Of a DNA stretch of 64,000 bases, positions 1,542 to 42,660 are shown piece after piece; the first letter of the stretch is position 1; every line of letters begins with the position of its first letter. Where the stretch lies: NCBI GenBank assembly GCA_028066245.1, contig JALCBR010000001.1:24184-88183 (forward strand). The letters run 5' to 3'. Below the pieces are notes generated by a model, which searched no databases, was not told where the DNA came from, and was given only the letters and a program-made list of their open reading frames with translations. A program made the position numbers and the translations under genes. Origin of the DNA: Pirellulales bacterium. GTDB lineage: Bacteria; Planctomycetota; Planctomycetia; Pirellulales; S012-138.

Positions 1542-1614
1542 GGGATTGAGGTGTTAGCGGCAGCATCCCTGGTTCTTACCCAGGCGAGTGAGGGTTCAAG
1601 TCCCTCCGATCCCA
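1542..1614 (+). tRNA. tRNA-Lys (anticodon CTT), non-canonical D region, no encoded CCA
   Basis: Hand-folded cloverleaf. Acceptor stem is GGGATTG/CGATCCC (7 bp, one GU). Anticodon stem is CCTGG/CCAGG with loop TTCTTAC. T arm is GAGGG-TTCAAGT-CCCTC. The D stem is weak (2 WC + 2 GU). Position 8 is A and position 14 is T, instead of U8/A14. Confidence 0.6.
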
Positions 1615-1740
1615 CTTCCGCGGATTGTCCGGCGTAGCGCCAGCGGTTTGAACGAGCGTTCATTCGCGGCAGCGGTTCTCCGCAACGGAAAGCACTGGTT
1701 TTCCAGCGGCAAGATCCCGCCTTCGTAACGGACGCCAACT

Positions 1741-9781: not shown

Positions 9782-9951
9782 GTCAGGCGAAGCAACCGGG
9801 ATCAAGACCGCCAGAATGAAAACGCTCTCTCCATCTTGCCAAAGTGCCAACGATGGGGGATTCTTCCCCTTGGCGCGCCGCCAGAATTCTCCGTAGGAGA
9901 TCAGGCGGCGACAGCCGATCCGGTTTGATCCTGAACACGCACAAGCTCTCC

Positions 9952-11160
9952 ATGGCAAAGAAGAAGACCAGCCGCTCTGCTCGTTCGAATTCCCGTACGA
10001 AGGCAACGGCGGTGTCCAGCACCGCGACCGAGAACGGCGCCAAGAAAAAGCGCCCTCGCTTGACCAGCGCCGCCGACAAGAAGACACGCAAAGCGCTGGT
10101 TGGTCTGGCGGATGAAGTCGTCAAGTTCGCGGACCGCAAGCGCGAGCCCTACGTGGATGTTCCGGCTCGTTCACTTTCCAACGTCAAGTACAACAAGTCG
10201 CGCAAGATTTTGGAGATGGGCCGCAACACCAATCGGCGGCAGTTGTTCAACCTCTCCCAGGCGCGGGGGTATATGCAGACCATGCTGGTTGCTAGCGGCT
10301 GCACACAGCTACTGGATGAAGGAAAGACGACCAGCATCCGGGGTTTGTACTACCTGCTCAAACACACTATCGAAGGCGCGAAGGAAGAAACCTTCGGTGA
10401 GCAATCCGAGTGCGACCCGATCATTGAAGACATGGAAGTACTGCTGGGTTCGCTCCGGGAGGAGTTGCACCTGTATGCCCAAAAGAAAGGGGATATGGTC
10501 GGCGAGATCACGCTAGTCGACAAAGGGGATGAGATTGATTGCTCTCGCATGGGGTCAGGCGGGTATGGCATTCCGTCCATCGTTGAGCCTGAAGCCATCC
10601 GCTTCAAGAAGTGCAAAGCCAAGTTCATTTTGCATGTCGAAAAAGATACCGTCTGGCAACGGTTCAATGAGGATAAGTTCTGGCGGAAGCACAACTGCAT
10701 TCTCACTCACGGAGGAGGGCAACCCCCGCGGGGCGTCCGCCGGCTGCTGCATCGAATGCACAATGAACTGAAGCTGCCTGTCTATTGCTTGTTGGATAAC
10801 GATCCCTGGGGCTACTACATCTATTCCGTCATTAAGCAGGGTTCCATCAACTTGGCGTACGAGTCGAGGCGGATGGCCATCCCTGAAGCTCGCTATTTGG
10901 GACTCCGTAGCACGGACTTTGAACGTTGCCAACTATCGGACAGCGTGATTATCCGCCTCAACGATACCGACCGCCGCAGGGCAAAGCAGATTGCCAACTA
11001 TGATTGGTTCAAGCCCAAACGGCCCTGGCAAAAGGAGATTGCCAAGATGTTGGACAATGACTTCAAGCTGGAAGTGGAAGCTCTGATTTCCAAGGACATC
11101 AGCTACGTCTCGGAAGAGTACGTCCCCAGCCGCCTGGCCGACCGTGACTGGCTGGATTGA
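9952..11160 (+). CDS. top6A: DNA topoisomerase VI subunit A / Spo11-type protein (5Y-CAP + Toprim) with a Lys/Arg-rich N-terminal tail
   Basis: A catalytic-Tyr context (TSIRGLYYLLKH), a Toprim Glu (FILHVEKDTVWQRF) and a DxD motif (CLLDNDPWGYYIY) are present. ATG at 9952 (MAKKKTSRSARS..). Confidence 0.8.
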   Translation: MAKKKTSRSARSNSRTKATAVSSTATENGAKKKRPRLTSAADKKTRKALVGLADEVVKFADRKREPYVDVPARSLSNVKYNKSRKILEMGRNTNRRQLFNLSQARGYMQTMLVASGCTQLLDEGKTTSIRGLYYLLKHTIEGAKEETFGEQSECDPIIEDMEVLLGSLREELHLYAQKKGDMVGEITLVDKGDEIDCSRMGSGGYGIPSIVEPEAIRFKKCKAKFILHVEKDTVWQRFNEDKFWRKHNCILTHGGGQPPRGVRRLLHRMHNELKLPVYCLLDNDPWGYYIYSVIKQGSINLAYESRRMAIPEARYLGLRSTDFERCQLSDSVIIRLNDTDRRRAKQIANYDWFKPKRPWQKEIAKMLDNDFKLEVEALISKDISYVSEEYVPSRLADRDWLD

Positions 11161-11219: not shown

Positions 11220-11699
11220 TCACTGGTTGCCGGAGTCTCTTTGCTCGATCTCTCGATCACGCAAAGAATCTCGTACTTCCATTAAGATACGGCCGAGCAT
11301 ATTCTTGCCGCTGCCATCTCCGCCGTCGCCCCAATAGGAATCGTTGGCTGTATTCTCGATTAACTTCGCATCGCCGGTGTTAAGCAATAGCAACCGTAAT
11401 TCGCTGTGCTGGCTGAACTTCGCCGCTACTACGTCCCGCATCACGTTGACCTTGGCAGACTCCCAATCGCGACGCAACTTCTTCTTTCTATCCCGCCCGA
11501 GTCGCGCAGCAATCATGGGCGACTTCGCTTTGCGGATCTTCTCTTGGTGAATTGGGTCTTTGAACTTTTGAGCCTGAAAATAGTGTTCCGAAGTCGGCCA
11601 GCGTTTCCCCTGGAGCATGATTGGGAATGCAGCAAAGTTGGAGAATTCTCCGTACTCGTCACTTACGCTGTAGAAACAGATCATCTGTCGGTCCGGCAT
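11220..11699 (-). CDS. NADAR (YbiA/DUF1768) family protein
   Basis: Motifs EFSNFA, WPTSEHYFQAQKF and NDSYWGDGGDGSGKNMLGRILMEVR are present. ATG at 11699. Confidence 0.8.
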   Translation of the reverse strand: MPDRQMICFYSVSDEYGEFSNFAAFPIMLQGKRWPTSEHYFQAQKFKDPIHQEKIRKAKSPMIAARLGRDRKKKLRRDWESAKVNVMRDVVAAKFSQHSELRLLLLNTGDAKLIENTANDSYWGDGGDGSGKNMLGRILMEVRDSLRDREIEQRDSGNQ

Positions 11700-11948
11700 G
11701 GTTCGACCCTTGGGTGTCTTTCTAGCTAATGGCTCATTCAAGAGACATGCATGCTGCCGGAAGGTTCGTACGGGAAGGTAACTGTCGGCACAAACGACCT
11801 GTCCACACGCAAGCATGAATGCGAAATCCGTCGCCGCCGCGACGCTCGGTCATGGAAACATAAATCTAACGAAACTAATAGGAACTCCGCTGCAGACGTT
11901 TCTCGTGGCGTGCCTATCCGGCACTCTTTCTGTGGTGCGGAGTAAGGG

Positions 11949-12527
11949 TTATCGGCATCTCTGCCCGTTCTCCTCTAACCGCTGCAACATCCTCTCCACA
12001 ACGTCTTCCACGAAGAACAAGCTTCCGTGGCCTGGCGAGACGAAACCCTTGGCCATGGCGTGTTCGATCATGCCGACCAGTGGATTGAAGTAGCCCAGCG
12101 TGTTTAGCAGGCCGATCGGCTTGCGGTGAAAGCCGAGTTGCGACCAAGTAATGGACTCGAACAGTTCGTCCAGCGTGCCGAAGCCGCCTGGCAGGGCGAT
12201 CACAGCGTCAGCCAGGTGATCCATGATGGCTTTGCGTTCGTGCATGCCGGAGACCACATGCAATTTGGTGGCGCCAGGGTGCAGAAGTTCTTTGGTGGCC
12301 AGGCTTTGTGGGATGACGCCGATCACCTCTCCGTCGGCGGCCAGCGCCGCATCGGCCAGTTGGCCCATTAGTCCCACCTGCCCTCCGCCGAAAATCAACG
12401 TGCGACCGCTTTCCGCCAGTCTCCGGCCCAACTCCTGCGCGCTCCGGGCGTACTCCGGACAATCTCCAGCCATCGATCCGCAGAAGACACACACATTCCG
12501 CACGGCAGGTCGGTTAGCTTTCTCCAT
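11949..12527 (-). CDS. LOG family protein (cytokinin riboside 5'-monophosphate phosphoribohydrolase-like, TIGR00730-type)
   Basis: Motifs VCVFCGS, IFGGGQVGLMG and the LOG signature LPGGFGTLDELFE are present. Confidence 0.85.
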   Translation of the reverse strand: MEKANRPAVRNVCVFCGSMAGDCPEYARSAQELGRRLAESGRTLIFGGGQVGLMGQLADAALAADGEVIGVIPQSLATKELLHPGATKLHVVSGMHERKAIMDHLADAVIALPGGFGTLDELFESITWSQLGFHRKPIGLLNTLGYFNPLVGMIEHAMAKGFVSPGHGSLFFVEDVVERMLQRLEENGQRCR

Positions 12528-12773
12528 TCCGGATTGATTCTCTTAGGCGGTGGCTGTTCTCGACTGTTGATTTTTCAAAATACATCTTCTCTGGTGCACA
12601 GCTTGCCGTCTAGTTTCAGGGCAAGAGGACAAAGCCAGGGAATGAGAGGTGGGAACTGTGGTCGCGAGCGAGCGTGCACGCCATCGTTCTATCTCTTTCC
12701 TTTGTCTCATTCCAAGGATCCTTCCTCTAGTCTTTCACTGCTTCTTAAGGCCCAATCGAGCAACCTTCCCACC

Positions 12774-13361
12774 ATGTCTCTTCGCAATCGTGTGATTGAA
12801 CTTCGTCGCGTTCCAGCGGCCGAATTGCGTGCCAACCCGCGGAACTGGCGGACTCATCCGCCGGGACAGCGGTCAGCCTTGCAGGGTATTTTGTCCGAGA
12901 TCGGTTTTGCTGGGGCGCTGATTGCCCGTGAGTTGGAACACGGGGCGCTGGAGCTTGTGGACGGACATCTCCGTGCCGAGACGGCTGCCCCGGATGACGT
13001 GTTGCCAGTCCTTGTGTTGGACCTTAACGAGAGCGAAGCGGACACGCTGCTTGCCGTGCTTGATCCTATTGCCGGTATGGCGACGCGAGACGACGATCTG
13101 CTCGCCGCCTTGCTGGAACGAGTTGAAACGGAAGATCGGCAGGTGCAGGCGTTACTCGATCAGATTAGACAGGGTGAATCGTCAATCGCTGGACTTCAAT
13201 CTCAGGGGCAGACTTCATCGGACAGCGTGCCCAGTTTGCGCATCGTACCGGTGCCGGAATCATTCCAGCTGCTTGTTGACTGCCGCGACGAGGATGATCA
13301 GCGCGAGCTGGACGCCCGCCTCACTGAGGAAGGATACAAGTGTCGGGTGTTGACGTTGTGA
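12774..13361 (+). CDS. short ParB/Srx-fold (ParB N-terminal domain-like) protein
   Basis: LRANPRNWRTHP.. and LVDGHLRAE match the ParB-N pattern (..NPRN.R.. / DG.HR). At 195 aa there is no recognisable HTH or dimerisation domain. The small C-terminal unit is LLVDCRDEDDQRELDARLTEEGYKCRV. Confidence 0.7.
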   Translation: MSLRNRVIELRRVPAAELRANPRNWRTHPPGQRSALQGILSEIGFAGALIARELEHGALELVDGHLRAETAAPDDVLPVLVLDLNESEADTLLAVLDPIAGMATRDDDLLAALLERVETEDRQVQALLDQIRQGESSIAGLQSQGQTSSDSVPSLRIVPVPESFQLLVDCRDEDDQRELDARLTEEGYKCRVLTL

Positions 13362-13540
13362 CAATGCGAAGAGGAAAGAGATAAGGGGCAGCCAGGCGTT
13401 GGAAGAAGTCGTGTACTTGGATTCTCTGGTCGACAGTCGCTCGCCTTAGCTAACTTCGGATCTCTTGGCGACTTCCCGTCTCCGGTACTTCATCCTGGTC
13501 TCTAATTCGATACCTCTCATCTTTCGTTCTATTACCTTTC

Positions 13541-14668
13541 ATGAACCTTAGCTTCACGGCACAAACACCGATCATCGAGAGTTTTCGCGTTCGCCAAACG
13601 CGAGGGCTATTCGACTTGCCGGAGGAGAGAACGGCGAAGGTCGAGTTTCAAGCTGAGTTGCCGGAAACAAGCGATGATTGGCAGATCGGCGCGATTGTCG
13701 GTCCCTCCGGCAGCGGCAAATCGACGGTCGCCCGTACTGCGTATGGCGAAAGTATCGTTGCACGGCAGGAGTGGCCAACGGATCGCGCGGTGATTGACGC
13801 GCTGCCGAAGGGTCCCATCAAGCACGTGACCGGCATGTTGTCATCTGTCGGGTTTTCCAGTCCGCCTGGCTGGCTCAAGCCCTATCACGTGCTATCTACC
13901 GGCGAGCAATTCCGTTGTGATTTGGCCGCTGCGGTTCTTTCTGACCAGATGTTAATCGTGTTTGACGAGTTTACCAGTGTCGTCGATCGCACCGCCGCAC
14001 AGATCGGTTCCGCCGCGGTGGCGCATGCAGTTCGCGAAGCGAACAAACGGCAGAAGCGAACCGACTTCCAGAAGTTTGTCGCTGTGACGTGTCATTATGA
14101 CGTGCTTCCCTGGTTGCAGCCTGACTGGGTGTTGGACATGGCCGACGGCACGCTCACGCGAGGACGTCTTCGGCGGCCTGACATCGAAATCACAATCCAT
14201 TCCGCGCGGCAGTCAGCTTGGTCCGCCTTTGCGCGTCATCACTATCTCAGCGGGAAGTTGAACCCCGCAGCGGTCTGCTACCTGGCCACTTGGCACGGCG
14301 AGCCGGTCGCCTTCTGTGGCGTACTCAACAGCATCGGGCACGTCGGGCTACGGCGAATCTCGCGGCTGGTGGTCCTGCCTGATTATCAAGGTGTCGGCAT
14401 TGGTGGACGTTTCATGGACGCGATCGGCGAGATCTACGCGGATGCTGGTGACCGCCTGCGAATCACCACCAGCCACCCGGCAATAATCGCCCGACTCCGC
14501 ACTTCATCCCAGTGGGTCGTCACGTCCATCCGCCGCGGCGGCAGCAATTGGGGAGCCTTTGCCAAACGAAAGAAGATCCACAGCACGTCGTTCGGTAGAA
14601 CCGTGGTCTCGGCGGAGTACGTAGCAGGCGCGAAGGAGATGGCAAAGGGAGAAGCGACAAGAGGCTAG
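13541..14668 (+). CDS. ABC-type ATPase domain fused to a C-terminal GNAT acetyltransferase-like domain
   Basis: ABC motifs present are Walker A GPSGSGKS (aa 54-61), signature-like LSTGEQ (118-123), Walker B LIVFDEF (138-144) and H-loop TCH (183-185). The GNAT motif-A-like segment is RISRLVVLPDYQGVGIGGRFMD. There are no TM segments and no permease gene nearby. Confidence 0.75.
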   Translation: MNLSFTAQTPIIESFRVRQTRGLFDLPEERTAKVEFQAELPETSDDWQIGAIVGPSGSGKSTVARTAYGESIVARQEWPTDRAVIDALPKGPIKHVTGMLSSVGFSSPPGWLKPYHVLSTGEQFRCDLAAAVLSDQMLIVFDEFTSVVDRTAAQIGSAAVAHAVREANKRQKRTDFQKFVAVTCHYDVLPWLQPDWVLDMADGTLTRGRLRRPDIEITIHSARQSAWSAFARHHYLSGKLNPAAVCYLATWHGEPVAFCGVLNSIGHVGLRRISRLVVLPDYQGVGIGGRFMDAIGEIYADAGDRLRITTSHPAIIARLRTSSQWVVTSIRRGGSNWGAFAKRKKIHSTSFGRTVVSAEYVAGAKEMAKGEATRG

Positions 14669-42464: not shown

Positions 42465-42538
42465 GCCAGCGTAGCTTCAATCGGCAGAGCACCGCATTCG
42501 TAATGCGGGGGTTGGGGGTTCGACTCCCCCCGCTGGCT
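42465..42538 (+). tRNA. tRNA-Thr (anticodon CGT)
   Basis: Acceptor stem is GCCAGCG/CGCTGGC. D arm is GCTT..GAGC. Anticodon stem is CCGCA/TGCGG with loop TTCGTAA. T arm is GGGGG-TTCGACT-CCCCC. CCA is not encoded. Confidence 0.85.
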
Positions 42539-42660
42539 CTAGTTATAAAGTCAGCCGAATTCAGTAGATAGAATACCTGTCGATGGTCGGCAGTGCGGCG
42601 TAATCCCGAGAGCCAAACAGGTACATACCGGTTTGGCGTTTCACGAAGGGAGAACCGCAC

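What the first reader, a model, noticed from the sequence alone, without database searches (positions are those of the whole stretch)
12774..14668. Short ParB/Srx-fold protein followed by an ABC-ATPase::GNAT fusion: candidate uncharacterised two-gene module
Two co-directional genes lie 180 bp apart.

- The first encodes only a ParB N-terminal (Srx-like, NTP-binding/nuclease-type) domain plus a tiny C-terminal unit. It lacks the HTH and dimerisation parts of chromosomal ParB, and no parA or parS context is visible.
- The second joins a compact, soluble ABC ATPase to a GNAT acetyltransferase domain in one polypeptide. The ABC part has Walker A, LSTGEQ, Walker B and H-loop within about 190 aa. 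There is no permease gene, and no coiled coil.

I do not know a characterised system with this architecture. ParB-N domains and stand-alone ABC ATPases both recur in phage-defence and DNA-modification modules, so an NTP-gated nucleic-acid or protein acetylation function is conceivable.
Basis: partly seen in the sequence, partly recalled or inferred. Interest (0 to 1): 0.7.

Follow-up and report, generated by a model that had tools for sequence, protein, structure and literature searches.

The report
Orphan phage ParB plus ABC-GNAT cassette
The two genes are a real, tightly co-inherited pair that normally sits just ahead of the DNA-packaging genes of many phages and probably puts an acyl group on nucleic acid; the pair was predicted by computation years ago but has never been tested, and this Pirellulales copy has lost its phage.

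Summary
Gene A (12774-13361) has a ParB N-terminal fold. Gene B (13541-14668) is a soluble ABC ATPase fused to a GNAT domain, with all motifs intact.

The pair is not new as an architecture. B matches phage family phrog_11143 over its full length. An ABC ATPase coupled to a GNAT, found in phages, was predicted by Iyer et al. (2013, restated 2021) to acylate a DNA base. I found no experimental study.

Co-conservation is very strong:
- An A relative lies directly upstream in 74 of 80 genomic loci and 58 of 70 viral loci.
- 11 of the top 150 representative proteins are single-chain A-B fusions.
- In 57 of 61 planctomycete loci, and in phages of five phyla, the pair lies just before terminase and portal genes of several unrelated types.

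The window copy is a rare orphan between host genes, with every invariant residue intact.

Features I could not check against the 2013 paper:
- A's 35-residue C-terminal unit accompanies B everywhere, even as a 42-54 aa stand-alone ORF.
- A is acidic and B basic.
- A formyltransferase recurs as a third gene.
- Inteins interrupt the ATPase motifs.

Best reading: an ATP-driven, ParB-assisted nucleic-acid acyltransferase, most likely acting on DNA. It is a new member of a predicted kind, of moderate interest.

The parts
12774..13361 (+). Gene A: 195-aa acidic protein (pI 4.55) made of a ParB-N fold, a short helical region, a disordered linker and a C-terminal beta-alpha-beta unit
   Evidence: ORF; start fixed by the family alignment; PHROG ParB-like hits; fold match to ParB, Noc and Srx; pI
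12774..13088 (+). ParB N-terminal (CTPase/Srx) fold, aa 1-105. Invariant NPRNWRTHP (12834-12860) and DGHLR (12960-12974) align with ParB box motifs NPxQPR and GERR
   Evidence: HMMER alignment to Spo0J 1vz0; Foldseek; invariant columns; coordinates
13254..13358 (+). C-terminal ~35-aa unit PESFQLLVDCRDEDDQRELDARLTEEGYKCRVLTL, the proposed docking module for B. The same unit ends every partner protein and occurs alone as a 42-54 aa ORF upstream of B in Mu-like phages
   Evidence: Alignment A4; phrog_28816 match at aa 164-193; pLDDT 85-96; six genomic loci match only this part
13362..13540 (.). 179-nt spacer between A and B. In most phage copies the two genes overlap or abut
   Evidence: Sequence; gap distribution; no promoter-like or terminator-like site
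13541..14668 (+). Gene B: 375-aa basic protein (pI 9.5), a soluble ABC ATPase fused to a GNAT acyltransferase
   Evidence: Pfam; phrog_11143 at 4e-101; AF2 pLDDT 91.9; Foldseek
13541..14176 (+). ABC ATPase domain, aa 1-212: Walker A 13700-13726, signature LSTGEQFR 13892-13915, Walker B and D-loop 13952-13990, H-loop 14087-14101, basic linker LTRGRLRRPD 14153-14182
   Evidence: Invariant columns; coordinates; PDB profile hits to ABC nucleotide-binding domains
14177..14626 (+). GNAT domain, aa 213-362, pI 10.2: invariant HHYL 14237-14248 and CoA-pyrophosphate loop RLVVLPDYQGVGIG 14363-14404
   Evidence: Pfam Acetyltransf_7/1/10; phrog_7693; Foldseek GNAT hits; pI

Best explanation
SHOWN
- A and B form one co-evolving functional unit of phage origin.
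- B is a soluble ABC ATPase fused to a GNAT domain, with all catalytic motifs intact.
- A has a ParB N-terminal fold followed by a conserved 35-residue C-terminal unit.
- The pair normally opens the late or packaging gene block of tailed phages and prophages.
- The window copy is an intact orphan lying between host genes.

INFERRED
1. A binds B through its C-terminal unit. That unit is the only part of A found with every B, and natural A-B fusion proteins exist.
2. ATP makes two B molecules dimerise head to tail, as ABC ATPases do, on nucleic acid. The basic GNAT half (pI about 10) and the basic linker RGRLRRP would hold the nucleic acid.
3. The GNAT domain transfers an acyl group, probably from acyl-CoA given its QxxGxG loop, to an exocyclic amine of a base.
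4. The ParB fold acts as an activator or nucleotide-gated regulator, as short HTH-less ParBs do for phage thymine dioxygenases. It is unlikely to be the DNA binder, because A is acidic and has no HTH.
5. In phages the target is most likely the phage's own DNA, modified as it is packaged so that it escapes host nucleases.
6. In this Pirellulales genome the pair is either a surviving prophage fragment or a captured copy. Its target in this genome is unknown.
For: Pairing
- An A relative lies upstream on the same strand in 74 of 80 genomic loci and 58 of 70 viral loci. Two of the six genomic misses are at contig edges.
- 11 of the top 150 representative proteins are A-B fusions.
- ABC and GNAT are separate adjacent ORFs in Streptococcus, Lactococcus and Tenacibaculum phages.

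Docking unit
- Alignment A4 covers the 54-aa phiE255 gp28 and a 42-aa Porphyromonas phage ORF.
- phrog_28816 matches the same residues of A.

Phage context
- GenBank phage records.
- Terminase small subunit, terminase large subunit, portal and capsid genes follow the pair in planctomycete loci.
- 57 of 61 loci with enough downstream sequence carry such genes.
- At least four terminase families are involved.
- The closest relative of B (69% identity) is followed by a 507-aa gene in the terminase position and a Pfam-confirmed portal gene.

Nucleic-acid target
- A's ParB domain aligns to the N-termini of phage DNA methyltransferase families (phrog_498, PADLOC MTase_II).
- The GNAT half has pI 10.2 and A has pI 4.55, and the same holds across both families.
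- TmcA, an NTPase plus GNAT that makes ac4C, is the only PDB hit that spans both halves of B.
- ASCH genes lie next to the pair in some phages. ASCH proteins hydrolyse N4-acylcytosine compounds (PMC6972931).

Precedents in the literature
- A ParB lacking an HTH is required for phage 5mYOX thymine dioxygenase activity (PMC13229309).
- Mom is a GNAT that modifies double-stranded DNA (PMC13219725).
- The DNA-base acylation prediction comes from Iyer et al. (PMC7824862).

Functional importance
- Inteins are inserted in Walker A and in the signature motif.
- Every invariant residue is present in the window copy.
Against: - No chemistry has been shown for any member of the family, so substrate, acyl donor and target base are all inferred.
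- B shows no detectable similarity to Mom (hhalign probability 0.06%). Its GNAT half matches no curated NCBIfam family.
- ASCH and formyltransferase neighbours, and the TmcA resemblance, fit an RNA or aminoacyl-tRNA target as well as a DNA target.
- A has H65 where ParB has its catalytic Glu, and L66 where ParB has an Arg. NTP hydrolysis by A is therefore doubtful.
- In the 5mYOX system, mutating the ParB NTP-site residues did not abolish activation.
- The window copy has no phage genes within 64 kb. It also has a 179-nt spacer where phage copies overlap, so its activity in this genome is uncertain.
- The locus sets are the best-scoring 80 hits of each scan. The genomic set is almost entirely Planctomycetota.
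Confidence: 0.5

Rival explanations
1. B is an RNA-directed enzyme. It would acetylate tRNA or rRNA cytidine as TmcA does, or act on aminoacyl-tRNA. Phages might use this to adjust translation or to protect tRNAs from host anticodon nucleases. A would be its regulator.
For: - TmcA (2zpa) is the only solved structure that aligns across both the NTPase and GNAT halves of B.
- ASCH genes, whose products hydrolyse N4-acylcytosine compounds, lie beside the pair in some phages. A 2026 preprint title also calls ASCH proteins tRNA ac4C erasers.
- A Formyl_trans_N gene, the Pfam family that to my knowledge includes Met-tRNA formyltransferase, directly follows B in three unrelated phages.
- The GNAT half is basic.
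Against: - No tRNA-binding or helicase domain is present.
- The partner's ParB fold is the kind fused to DNA methyltransferases.
- The position beside the terminase matches late DNA modification.
- ASCH and formyltransferase neighbours are present in only a few loci.
Confidence: 0.15
2. B acetylates a protein. The target could be a host protein, as in host takeover by phage Rac, or a phage packaging or head protein. ATP and A would control timing. Alternatively the pair directly assists DNA packaging.
For: - Most characterised GNATs act on proteins or small molecules.
- The only weak curated match of the GNAT half is RimI (E 0.11).
- The pair sits immediately before the terminase small and large subunit genes in most loci.
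Against: - The RimI match is not significant.
- The pair occurs with at least four unrelated terminase families.
- It lies far from the terminase in phiE255 and in a Porphyromonas phage, at the genome end after the tail genes. It is also away from the terminase in T4-like Aeromonas phage PX29 and in jumbo phage pT24. It is therefore an accessory cassette and not part of the packaging machine.
- To my knowledge, coupling to an ABC ATPase and a ParB fold is not known for protein GNATs.
Confidence: 0.12
3. The pair is a host defence or toxin-antitoxin-like module. A would be an acidic antitoxin that neutralises a basic GNAT toxin, for example one that acetylates aminoacyl-tRNA. Alternatively the pair is the modification half of a restriction-like system.
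For: - The layout fits: a small acidic upstream gene, often overlapping a basic GNAT gene.
- A minimal 42-54 aa partner exists in some phages.
- The window copy is a stand-alone two-gene unit in a chromosome.
- There is a weak PADLOC hit to the MADS component mad3 (2e-10, partial).
Against: - No match to known GNAT toxin or antitoxin families.
- The PADLOC hit covers only the generic ABC signature region.
- The pair sits in late or structural operons of temperate and apparently lytic phages, including Gordonia phages and a T4-like Aeromonas phage, not in immunity regions or defence islands.
- No nuclease partner lies beside the window copy.
- Natural A-B fusions would be odd for a toxin and its antitoxin.
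Confidence: 0.08
4. This rival concerns only the window copy and can coexist with any biochemical reading. The pair would be an inert leftover of a decayed prophage, no longer expressed or used.
For: - No terminase, portal or capsid gene lies anywhere in the 64-kb window, whereas 57 of 61 related loci have them.
- A 179-nt spacer replaces the usual gene overlap.
- No promoter-like site was found.
- Similar orphans occur sporadically elsewhere: L011, L014, L017 and L037.
Against: - Both reading frames are intact, with every family-invariant residue present.
- Divergence from relatives is ordinary: 69% identity to the closest B and 58% to the closest A.
- Codon usage and GC content match the host genes.
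- The flanks are clean, with no pseudogene debris.
- The promoter scan uses a sigma-70 consensus that may not suit Planctomycetota.
Confidence: 0.25

Closest known systems
ABC ATPase-coupled GNAT of phages, predicted to make an acyl modification of a DNA base (Iyer, Zhang, Burroughs & Aravind 2013, NAR 41:7635, as restated in Iyer et al. 2021, PMC7824862); PHROG family phrog_11143
   Same: - Same fusion of an ABC ATPase with a GNAT.
- Full-length profile match to phrog_11143 (4e-101).
- The phage named in the 2021 paper, Tenacibaculum pT24, carries a homologue (E 1e-46).
- A ParB-fold gene lies directly upstream, as in GenBank phages that carry B homologues.
   Different: - The window copy is detached from any phage genes.
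- The 2013 paper could not be read here. I therefore cannot say whether it describes a ParB partner, the C-terminal docking unit, the fusions, the inteins or the formyltransferase link.
- The function remains a prediction only.
Phage Mu Mom (GNAT that modifies adenine in double-stranded DNA)
   Same: - A phage GNAT-fold enzyme that acylates an exocyclic amine of a DNA base as an anti-restriction device (PMC13219725).
- In Mu-like phiE255 the B gene occupies a similar accessory position after the tail-fibre genes.
   Different: - No detectable sequence relationship (hhalign probability 0.06%).
- Mom has no ATPase domain or ParB partner, uses Gly-tRNA as donor, and is controlled by Com.
- B keeps a canonical CoA-type QxxGxG loop.
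TmcA / NAT10 (tRNA or rRNA cytidine N4-acetyltransferase)
   Same: - One polypeptide combines a P-loop NTPase with a GNAT, and ATP hydrolysis drives acetylation of a nucleic-acid base.
- It is the only PDB entry that aligns over both halves of B (2zpa, E 7e-8).
   Different: - To my knowledge the TmcA NTPase is of the RecD-helicase type, not ABC.
- The overall superposition is poor (TM 0.29, rmsd 14 A).
- The substrate is RNA, it has a dedicated tRNA-binding domain, and it has no ParB partner.
ParB-dependent phage thymine dioxygenases (5mYOX with a short ParB)
   Same: - A short phage ParB homologue with the N-terminal nucleotide-binding fold and a small C-terminal domain, but no obvious DNA-binding domain.
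- It is encoded beside a DNA-modifying enzyme and is required for that enzyme's activity (PMC13229309).
   Different: - The enzyme is an Fe/2OG dioxygenase, not an ATPase-GNAT.
- The C-terminal domains were not compared and are probably unrelated.
- No stable complex was captured in that system, whereas natural A-B fusions exist here.
ParB-DNA methyltransferase fusions of prophages
   Same: A's N-terminal ~115 residues align with the N-terminal ParB-like region of phage methyltransferase families (phrog_498 at 2.8e-10; PADLOC MTase_II at 6.7e-6). Such fusions are enriched in prophages (PMC12704722).
   Different: The catalytic partner here is a separate ATPase-GNAT protein, not a fused SAM methyltransferase.
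Chromosomal ParB/Spo0J and Noc
   Same: The N-terminal fold is the same (Foldseek E about 2e-5). R26 and R67 align with the Arg of NPxQPR and the second Arg of GERR. To my knowledge these are the phosphate-binding arginines (R54 and R95 in Myxococcus numbering).
   Different: No HTH, no ParB dimerisation domain, no parA or parS. GERR is replaced by GHLR. The protein is acidic.

Membership tests
Phage ABC-ATPase/GNAT predicted DNA-acylation system (phrog_11143; Iyer et al. 2013/2021), with the ParB-fold partner seen in phage records here | Full-length similarity to the phage ABC-GNAT family | tested here: met
   phrog_11143 at E 4.3e-101, covering aa 8-366 of 375 against profile positions 6-354 of 357. 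64 phage records hit at E<=1e-5. Tenacibaculum phage pT24 hit at E 1e-46.
Phage ABC-ATPase/GNAT predicted DNA-acylation system (phrog_11143; Iyer et al. 2013/2021), with the ParB-fold partner seen in phage records here | Intact ABC ATPase motifs and GNAT CoA-binding loop in one protein | tested here: met
   Walker A, signature, Walker B, D-loop, H-loop and QxxGxG are all invariant across the family and present in the window copy.
Phage ABC-ATPase/GNAT predicted DNA-acylation system (phrog_11143; Iyer et al. 2013/2021), with the ParB-fold partner seen in phage records here | ParB-fold partner gene immediately upstream on the same strand | tested here: met
   Window gene A. Found in 74 of 80 genomic and 58 of 70 viral loci. 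A-B fusion proteins exist.
Phage ABC-ATPase/GNAT predicted DNA-acylation system (phrog_11143; Iyer et al. 2013/2021), with the ParB-fold partner seen in phage records here | Location in a phage or prophage | tested here: not met
   No terminase, portal or capsid gene in the 64-kb window, and the neighbours are host genes. The feature is met in 57 of 61 related loci. It describes context, not the proteins, so I still file the pair under this family.
Phage ABC-ATPase/GNAT predicted DNA-acylation system (phrog_11143; Iyer et al. 2013/2021), with the ParB-fold partner seen in phage records here | Acyl modification of a DNA base | not testable with these tools
   Requires nucleoside mass spectrometry. 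No published experiment was found.
Canonical ParB/Spo0J partition protein | ParB N-terminal CTPase fold | tested here: met
   Foldseek matches to 7bnk, 6sdk, 7nfu and others at E 1.6e-5 to 1e-3. Family profile against 1vz0 at E 0.007.
Canonical ParB/Spo0J partition protein | Central HTH DNA-binding domain and C-terminal ParB dimerisation domain | tested here: not met
   No Pfam hit. Fold matches cover only about 110-135 N-terminal columns. The C-terminus is a distinct 35-aa unit shared with B's partner proteins in other phages.
Canonical ParB/Spo0J partition protein | GERRxRA box and a neighbouring parA gene | tested here: not met
   DGHLR aligns to GERR. No ParA-like gene among the neighbours.
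ABC transporter nucleotide-binding subunit | Partner permease or transmembrane domain | tested here: not met
   No permease in the operon. B is followed by a convergent EF-hand gene. All NCBIfam transporter hits are far below their cut-offs, at about 30 bits against 200-850.
Mom family (phage Mu DNA adenine modification) | Sequence similarity to Mom | tested here: not met
   hhalign of the B family profile against Mu Mom gives probability 0.06% and E 0.73. The template was a single sequence, so this is a weak test.
TmcA/NAT10 cytidine acetyltransferases | RecD-type helicase NTPase plus GNAT plus tRNA-binding domain | tested here: not met
   The NTPase is of the ABC type. TmcA aligns only loosely (TM 0.29). 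No extra RNA-binding domain appears in the model.
Known anti-phage defence systems (PADLOC-DB 2.0) | Significant full-length match to a defence protein model | tested here: not met
   Only partial hits. mad3 covers aa 105-154, the generic ABC signature region. MTase_II matches only A's ParB-like N-terminus.
GNAT toxin-antitoxin pairs (TacAT / AtaRT type) | Match to GNAT toxin families and an RHH/DUF1778 antitoxin | tested here: not met
   No such family among the Pfam or NCBIfam hits for A, B or the GNAT half.

The most novel reading that the evidence does not exclude
The orphan pair has been taken over by the planctomycete host. There it would work as an ATP-driven, ParB-activated enzyme that puts an acyl mark on the cell's own DNA or on a specific RNA. 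That would be a second, unrelated GNAT route to nucleic-acid base acylation after Mom. It would use a 35-residue docking peptide as a general activator and would serve an epigenetic or self-marking role outside any phage.
Probability: 0.12. Interest if true: 0.8.

Novelty: new member of a known kind. Interest (0 to 1): 0.45.

Why it matters
Mom is the only GNAT shown to modify DNA, and that was established only in 2026 (PMC13219725). The B family is far more widespread:
- about 1,000 clusters at 50% identity;
- at least 7,982 clusters at 90% identity, a capped count;
- phages of Actinomycetota, Bacillota, Pseudomonadota, Bacteroidota and Spirochaetota, and hundreds of planctomycete genomes.

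If it acylates DNA bases, it would be a common but unmeasured phage DNA modification. That matters for restriction evasion, for sequencing artefacts and for enzyme tools.

The work here gives concrete handles for experiments:
- a two-protein minimal system;
- a defined docking peptide;
- natural fusion proteins;
- split-gene variants;
- cultivable phages that carry the pair (Lactococcus P335, Streptococcus 315.4, Gordonia Jace and AnClar, Burkholderia phiE255).

For this window itself the result is modest. It is an orphan copy of a phage cassette.

Tried and rejected
- Pfam and NCBIfam on A gave no hit at E<=1. The ParB assignment needed PHROGs, a family profile and a fold search.
- tblastn of A against GenBank phages found nothing, because A is too divergent. 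Partners were found through B and by HMM.
- The 2013 NAR paper and the 2020 ABC ATPase classification are not held. The prior prediction is cited only through the 2021 review.
- Searches for experimental work on this fusion found none.
- Mom membership was rejected.
- Curated GNAT family membership was rejected.
- Defence-system membership was rejected.
- The promoter and terminator scan was empty.
- Codon usage and GC content show no sign of recent transfer.
- Several apparent orphan loci in my first count were artefacts of crude ORF calling or carried other terminase types. A re-test by tblastn left 4 true orphans among 61 loci.
- Aspartate decarboxylase (Jace gp87), HNH (AnClar gp1) and other single-phage neighbours did not recur. 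I dropped them as clues.
Full report
**1. What is in the window**

The two ORFs exist as described.

Gene A
- It runs from ATG 12774 to TGA 13361 and encodes 195 aa.
- A longer TTG-initiated ORF begins at 12534. However, 50 homologues share the N-terminus M-x-(I/L/V)-R-(D/N)-R, and the NCBI model MPJ50_00180 is identical.

Gene B
- It runs from 13541 to 14668 and encodes 375 aa. A 179-nt spacer separates it from A.

Source and neighbours
- The window comes from a Pirellulales metagenome-assembled genome, on a contig of 183,597 bp.
- The neighbours are ordinary chromosomal genes:
  - upstream, a TopoVI-A/Spo11-like gene, a NADAR gene and a LOG-family gene;
  - downstream and convergent, an EF-hand protein gene followed by the Suf operon.

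**2. Domain assignments**

Gene B
- Pfam finds ABC_tran, Acetyltransf_7 and Acetyltransf_1 above threshold.
  - GPSGSGKST, with K60;
  - LSTGEQFR;
  - LIVFDEFTSVVDR;
  - TCHYD;
  - the GNAT loop QGVGIG.
- The AlphaFold2 model is confident (pLDDT 91.9).
- Foldseek returns ABC nucleotide-binding domains and GNATs. It also returns TmcA as the one solved structure that spans both halves.

Gene A
- It has no Pfam or NCBIfam hit.
- It matches phage ParB-like PHROGs at about 1e-9.
- It also matches the ParB-like N-terminal regions of phage DNA methyltransferase families.
- Its family profile reaches Spo0J at E 0.007.
- Its model matches ParB, Noc, PadC, KorB and sulfiredoxin.
- In the Spo0J alignment, NPRNWR pairs with NPRQPR and GHLR pairs with GERR.
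  - R26 and R67 therefore occupy the positions of two conserved arginines. To my knowledge these are the phosphate-binding arginines (R54 and R95 in Myxococcus numbering).
  - The position of the conserved Gln is Asn (N24), and the position of the conserved Glu is His (H65). These are the residues named for CTP hydrolysis.
- Nothing after residue 135 resembles an HTH or the ParB dimerisation domain.

**3. The architecture has been seen before**

- B matches phage family phrog_11143 over its whole length (4e-101). That family has no assigned function.
- Iyer et al. [quoted passage not shown] They cite their 2013 NAR paper and name Tenacibaculum phage pT24.
- pT24 does carry a B homologue (E 1e-46).
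- I could not read the 2013 paper.
- I found no experimental work on this family.

**4. Co-conservation**

Family size
- B has at least 7,982 relatives at 90% clustering, a capped count.
- It has about 1,031 clusters at 50% identity with E<=1e-30.
- A has at least 1,744 relatives.

Adjacency
- In the 80 best species-representative genome loci, nearly all Planctomycetota, an A relative lies directly upstream on the same strand in 74. Two of the six misses are at contig edges.
- In 80 IMG/VR viral contigs, 58 of the 70 with room upstream have an A-family HMM hit in the adjacent ORF. That ORF usually overlaps B by about 20 nt.

Fusions and splits
- Eleven of the top 150 representative proteins are single polypeptides of 558-623 aa. 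A occupies the first ~200 residues and B the rest.
- In the opposite direction, Streptococcus, Lactococcus and Tenacibaculum phages split B into separate ABC and GNAT ORFs.

**5. Where the pair normally lives**

- I clustered the neighbouring ORFs and annotated them. In planctomycete genomes the pair is followed at once by terminase small subunit, terminase large subunit (phrog_38, 2e-80), portal, scaffold or protease, decoration and major capsid genes.
- Re-testing with several head-gene families gives 57 of 61 loci with such genes downstream.
- B's closest relative (69% identity) is followed by a 162-aa gene, a 507-aa gene in the terminase position and a Pfam-confirmed portal gene.
- Viral contigs show the same order with at least four unrelated terminase families.
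- GenBank phages of very different hosts agree:
  - Streptococcus 315.4;
  - Lactococcus P335, where the pair directly follows the late activator;
  - Pasteurella Pmp13;
  - Gordonia AnClar.
- The link to the terminase is not obligatory. Examples are phiE255 and a Porphyromonas phage, where the pair lies after the tail genes at the genome end, Aeromonas PX29, pT24 and Jace.
- The pair is therefore an accessory cassette usually expressed with late genes. It is not part of the packaging motor, and it is not a defence-island module.

**6. The window copy is an orphan**

- None of the head or packaging families is present anywhere in the 64 kb.
- The pair fits exactly between a divergent LOG gene and a convergent EF-hand gene, with no debris. 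The same arrangement appears in a second, independent assembly.
- Both proteins keep every invariant residue.
- Their divergence from relatives is ordinary.
- Their composition matches the host genes.
- Similar orphans occur in about 7% of related loci, each in a different context.

**7. Features that bear on mechanism**

(a) The docking unit
- The last ~35 residues of A form a conserved unit with the pattern hhhVxCxxExxQ...G(Y/F)xC(R/K)Vxx(L/V), where h is a hydrophobic residue.
- It is shared by every partner protein examined, from Firmicutes phages to planctomycetes.
- In phiE255 (gp28, 54 aa) and a Porphyromonas phage (42 aa) it stands alone directly upstream of B, with no ParB domain.
- Six genomic loci match A only in this unit.
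- This makes it the likely B-binding element, and the ParB fold a common but dispensable add-on.

(b) Charge
- A is acidic (pI 4.55, family median 4.7).
- B is basic (pI 9.5, family median 9.75), mainly through the GNAT half (pI 10.2) and the linker RGRLRRP.
- That fits B as the nucleic-acid binder and A as a regulator.

(c) Recurrent third genes
- A Formyl_trans_N gene directly follows B in three unrelated phages.
- ASCH genes occur nearby in a few.

(d) Inteins
- Inteins interrupt Walker A or the signature motif in three representative proteins. To my knowledge inteins typically lie in sites that must stay functional.

**8. Mechanism**

Shown
- A co-evolving phage cassette that encodes an intact ABC ATPase-GNAT protein and a ParB-fold partner.

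Inferred
- A docks on B through its C-terminal unit.
- ATP-driven dimerisation of B on nucleic acid positions the GNAT domain to transfer an acyl group, probably from acyl-CoA, to a base amine.
- The ParB fold activates or gates this step.

Precedents
- HTH-less phage ParBs are required for thymine dioxygenase activity on DNA.
- ParB folds are often fused to DNA methyltransferases in prophages.
- Mom shows that a GNAT can modify double-stranded DNA.
- TmcA shows that an NTPase-GNAT can acetylate a nucleic-acid base.

I rate DNA as the most likely target. RNA or aminoacyl-tRNA (supported by the ASCH, formyltransferase and TmcA clues) and protein targets remain open. A toxin-antitoxin or defence reading is unlikely.

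**9. Comparison and verdict**

- The pair belongs to the computationally predicted phage ABC-ATPase/GNAT kind, with the ParB-fold partner seen in phage records here.
- It is not a member of the Mom family, of TmcA, of ABC transporters, of canonical ParB, or of any PADLOC system.
- I rate it a new, orphan member of a known but only predicted kind.
- Interest is moderate. The biology of the family is unresolved and easy to test, but this window adds little beyond an unusual genomic setting.

**Caveats**

- The locus sets are the top-scoring 80 of each scan.
- ORF calling was mechanical.
- Neighbour families were defined by local BLAST clustering.

Noticed in passing
Proteins P0257, P0269, P0286, P0287, P0293, P0297, P0301, P0321, P0351, P0363, P0382: Natural single-chain fusions of the ParB-fold partner and the ABC-GNAT enzyme, 558-623 aa long and in the same order as the two genes. 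They make up 11 of the top 150 representatives at 50% identity.
   Followed up: yes
Proteins P0313, P0306, P0368: Inserts of 340-430 aa with the sequence look of inteins interrupt the ABC domain. One lies right after the Walker A GK (P0313) and two lie inside the LSxGE signature (P0306, P0368). The flanking halves align perfectly to the family profile.
   Followed up: partly
L002:6119-6733, L167:4628-5101, L164:2312-2962: A Formyl_trans_N gene directly follows the ABC-GNAT gene in three unrelated phages: Burkholderia phiE255, Porphyromonas phage006a and Gordonia AnClar, where it is annotated as a tRNA methyltransferase. The first two lack the ParB domain and keep only the 42-54 aa mini-partner.
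   Followed up: partly
Loci L004-L083 (Planctomycetota genomes): Most planctomycete species representatives that carry the pair share a similar head and packaging block (terminase small and large subunits, portal, scaffold, decoration, capsid). They also share recurrent upstream genes: a trypsin-like membrane protease in 38 loci, an EEP nuclease and an HD protein. This could be a widespread prophage lineage or a domesticated, gene-transfer-agent-like element.
   Followed up: no
window 9844-11160 (+): A TopoVI subunit A / Spo11-like gene (TP6A_N, Topo_VI_alpha, Toprim; 6e-59) with no obvious TopoVI-B gene beside it.
   Followed up: no
window 11220-11816 (-) and 11949-12527 (-): Adjacent NADAR and LOG/SLOG-family genes lie immediately upstream of gene A, with the LOG gene divergent from it. 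To my knowledge both families can act on nucleotides or ADP-ribosylated bases. No link to the pair was seen in other loci.
   Followed up: partly
L001:6125-6502; L147, L152, L118: ASCH-domain genes (PUA-like fold; characterised relatives hydrolyse N4-acylcytosine compounds) lie next to the cassette in Streptococcus phage 315.4 and in a few viral contigs.
   Followed up: partly
L037:4602-5582 and L037:11274-11690: Another orphan copy of the pair has an ORF 2.4 kb upstream that looks by eye like a XerC/D-type recombinase. About 2 kb downstream, on the other strand, is an ORF that looks like QueD / 6-pyruvoyl-tetrahydropterin synthase. Neither was checked against a profile library, and the proximity may be coincidental.
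   Followed up: no
window 1542-1615, 2547-2620, 42465-42539: Three tRNA genes: Lys-CTT, Arg-TCG and Thr-CGT. None is adjacent to the pair, so there is no sign of a tRNA-targeted integration site near it.
   Followed up: no
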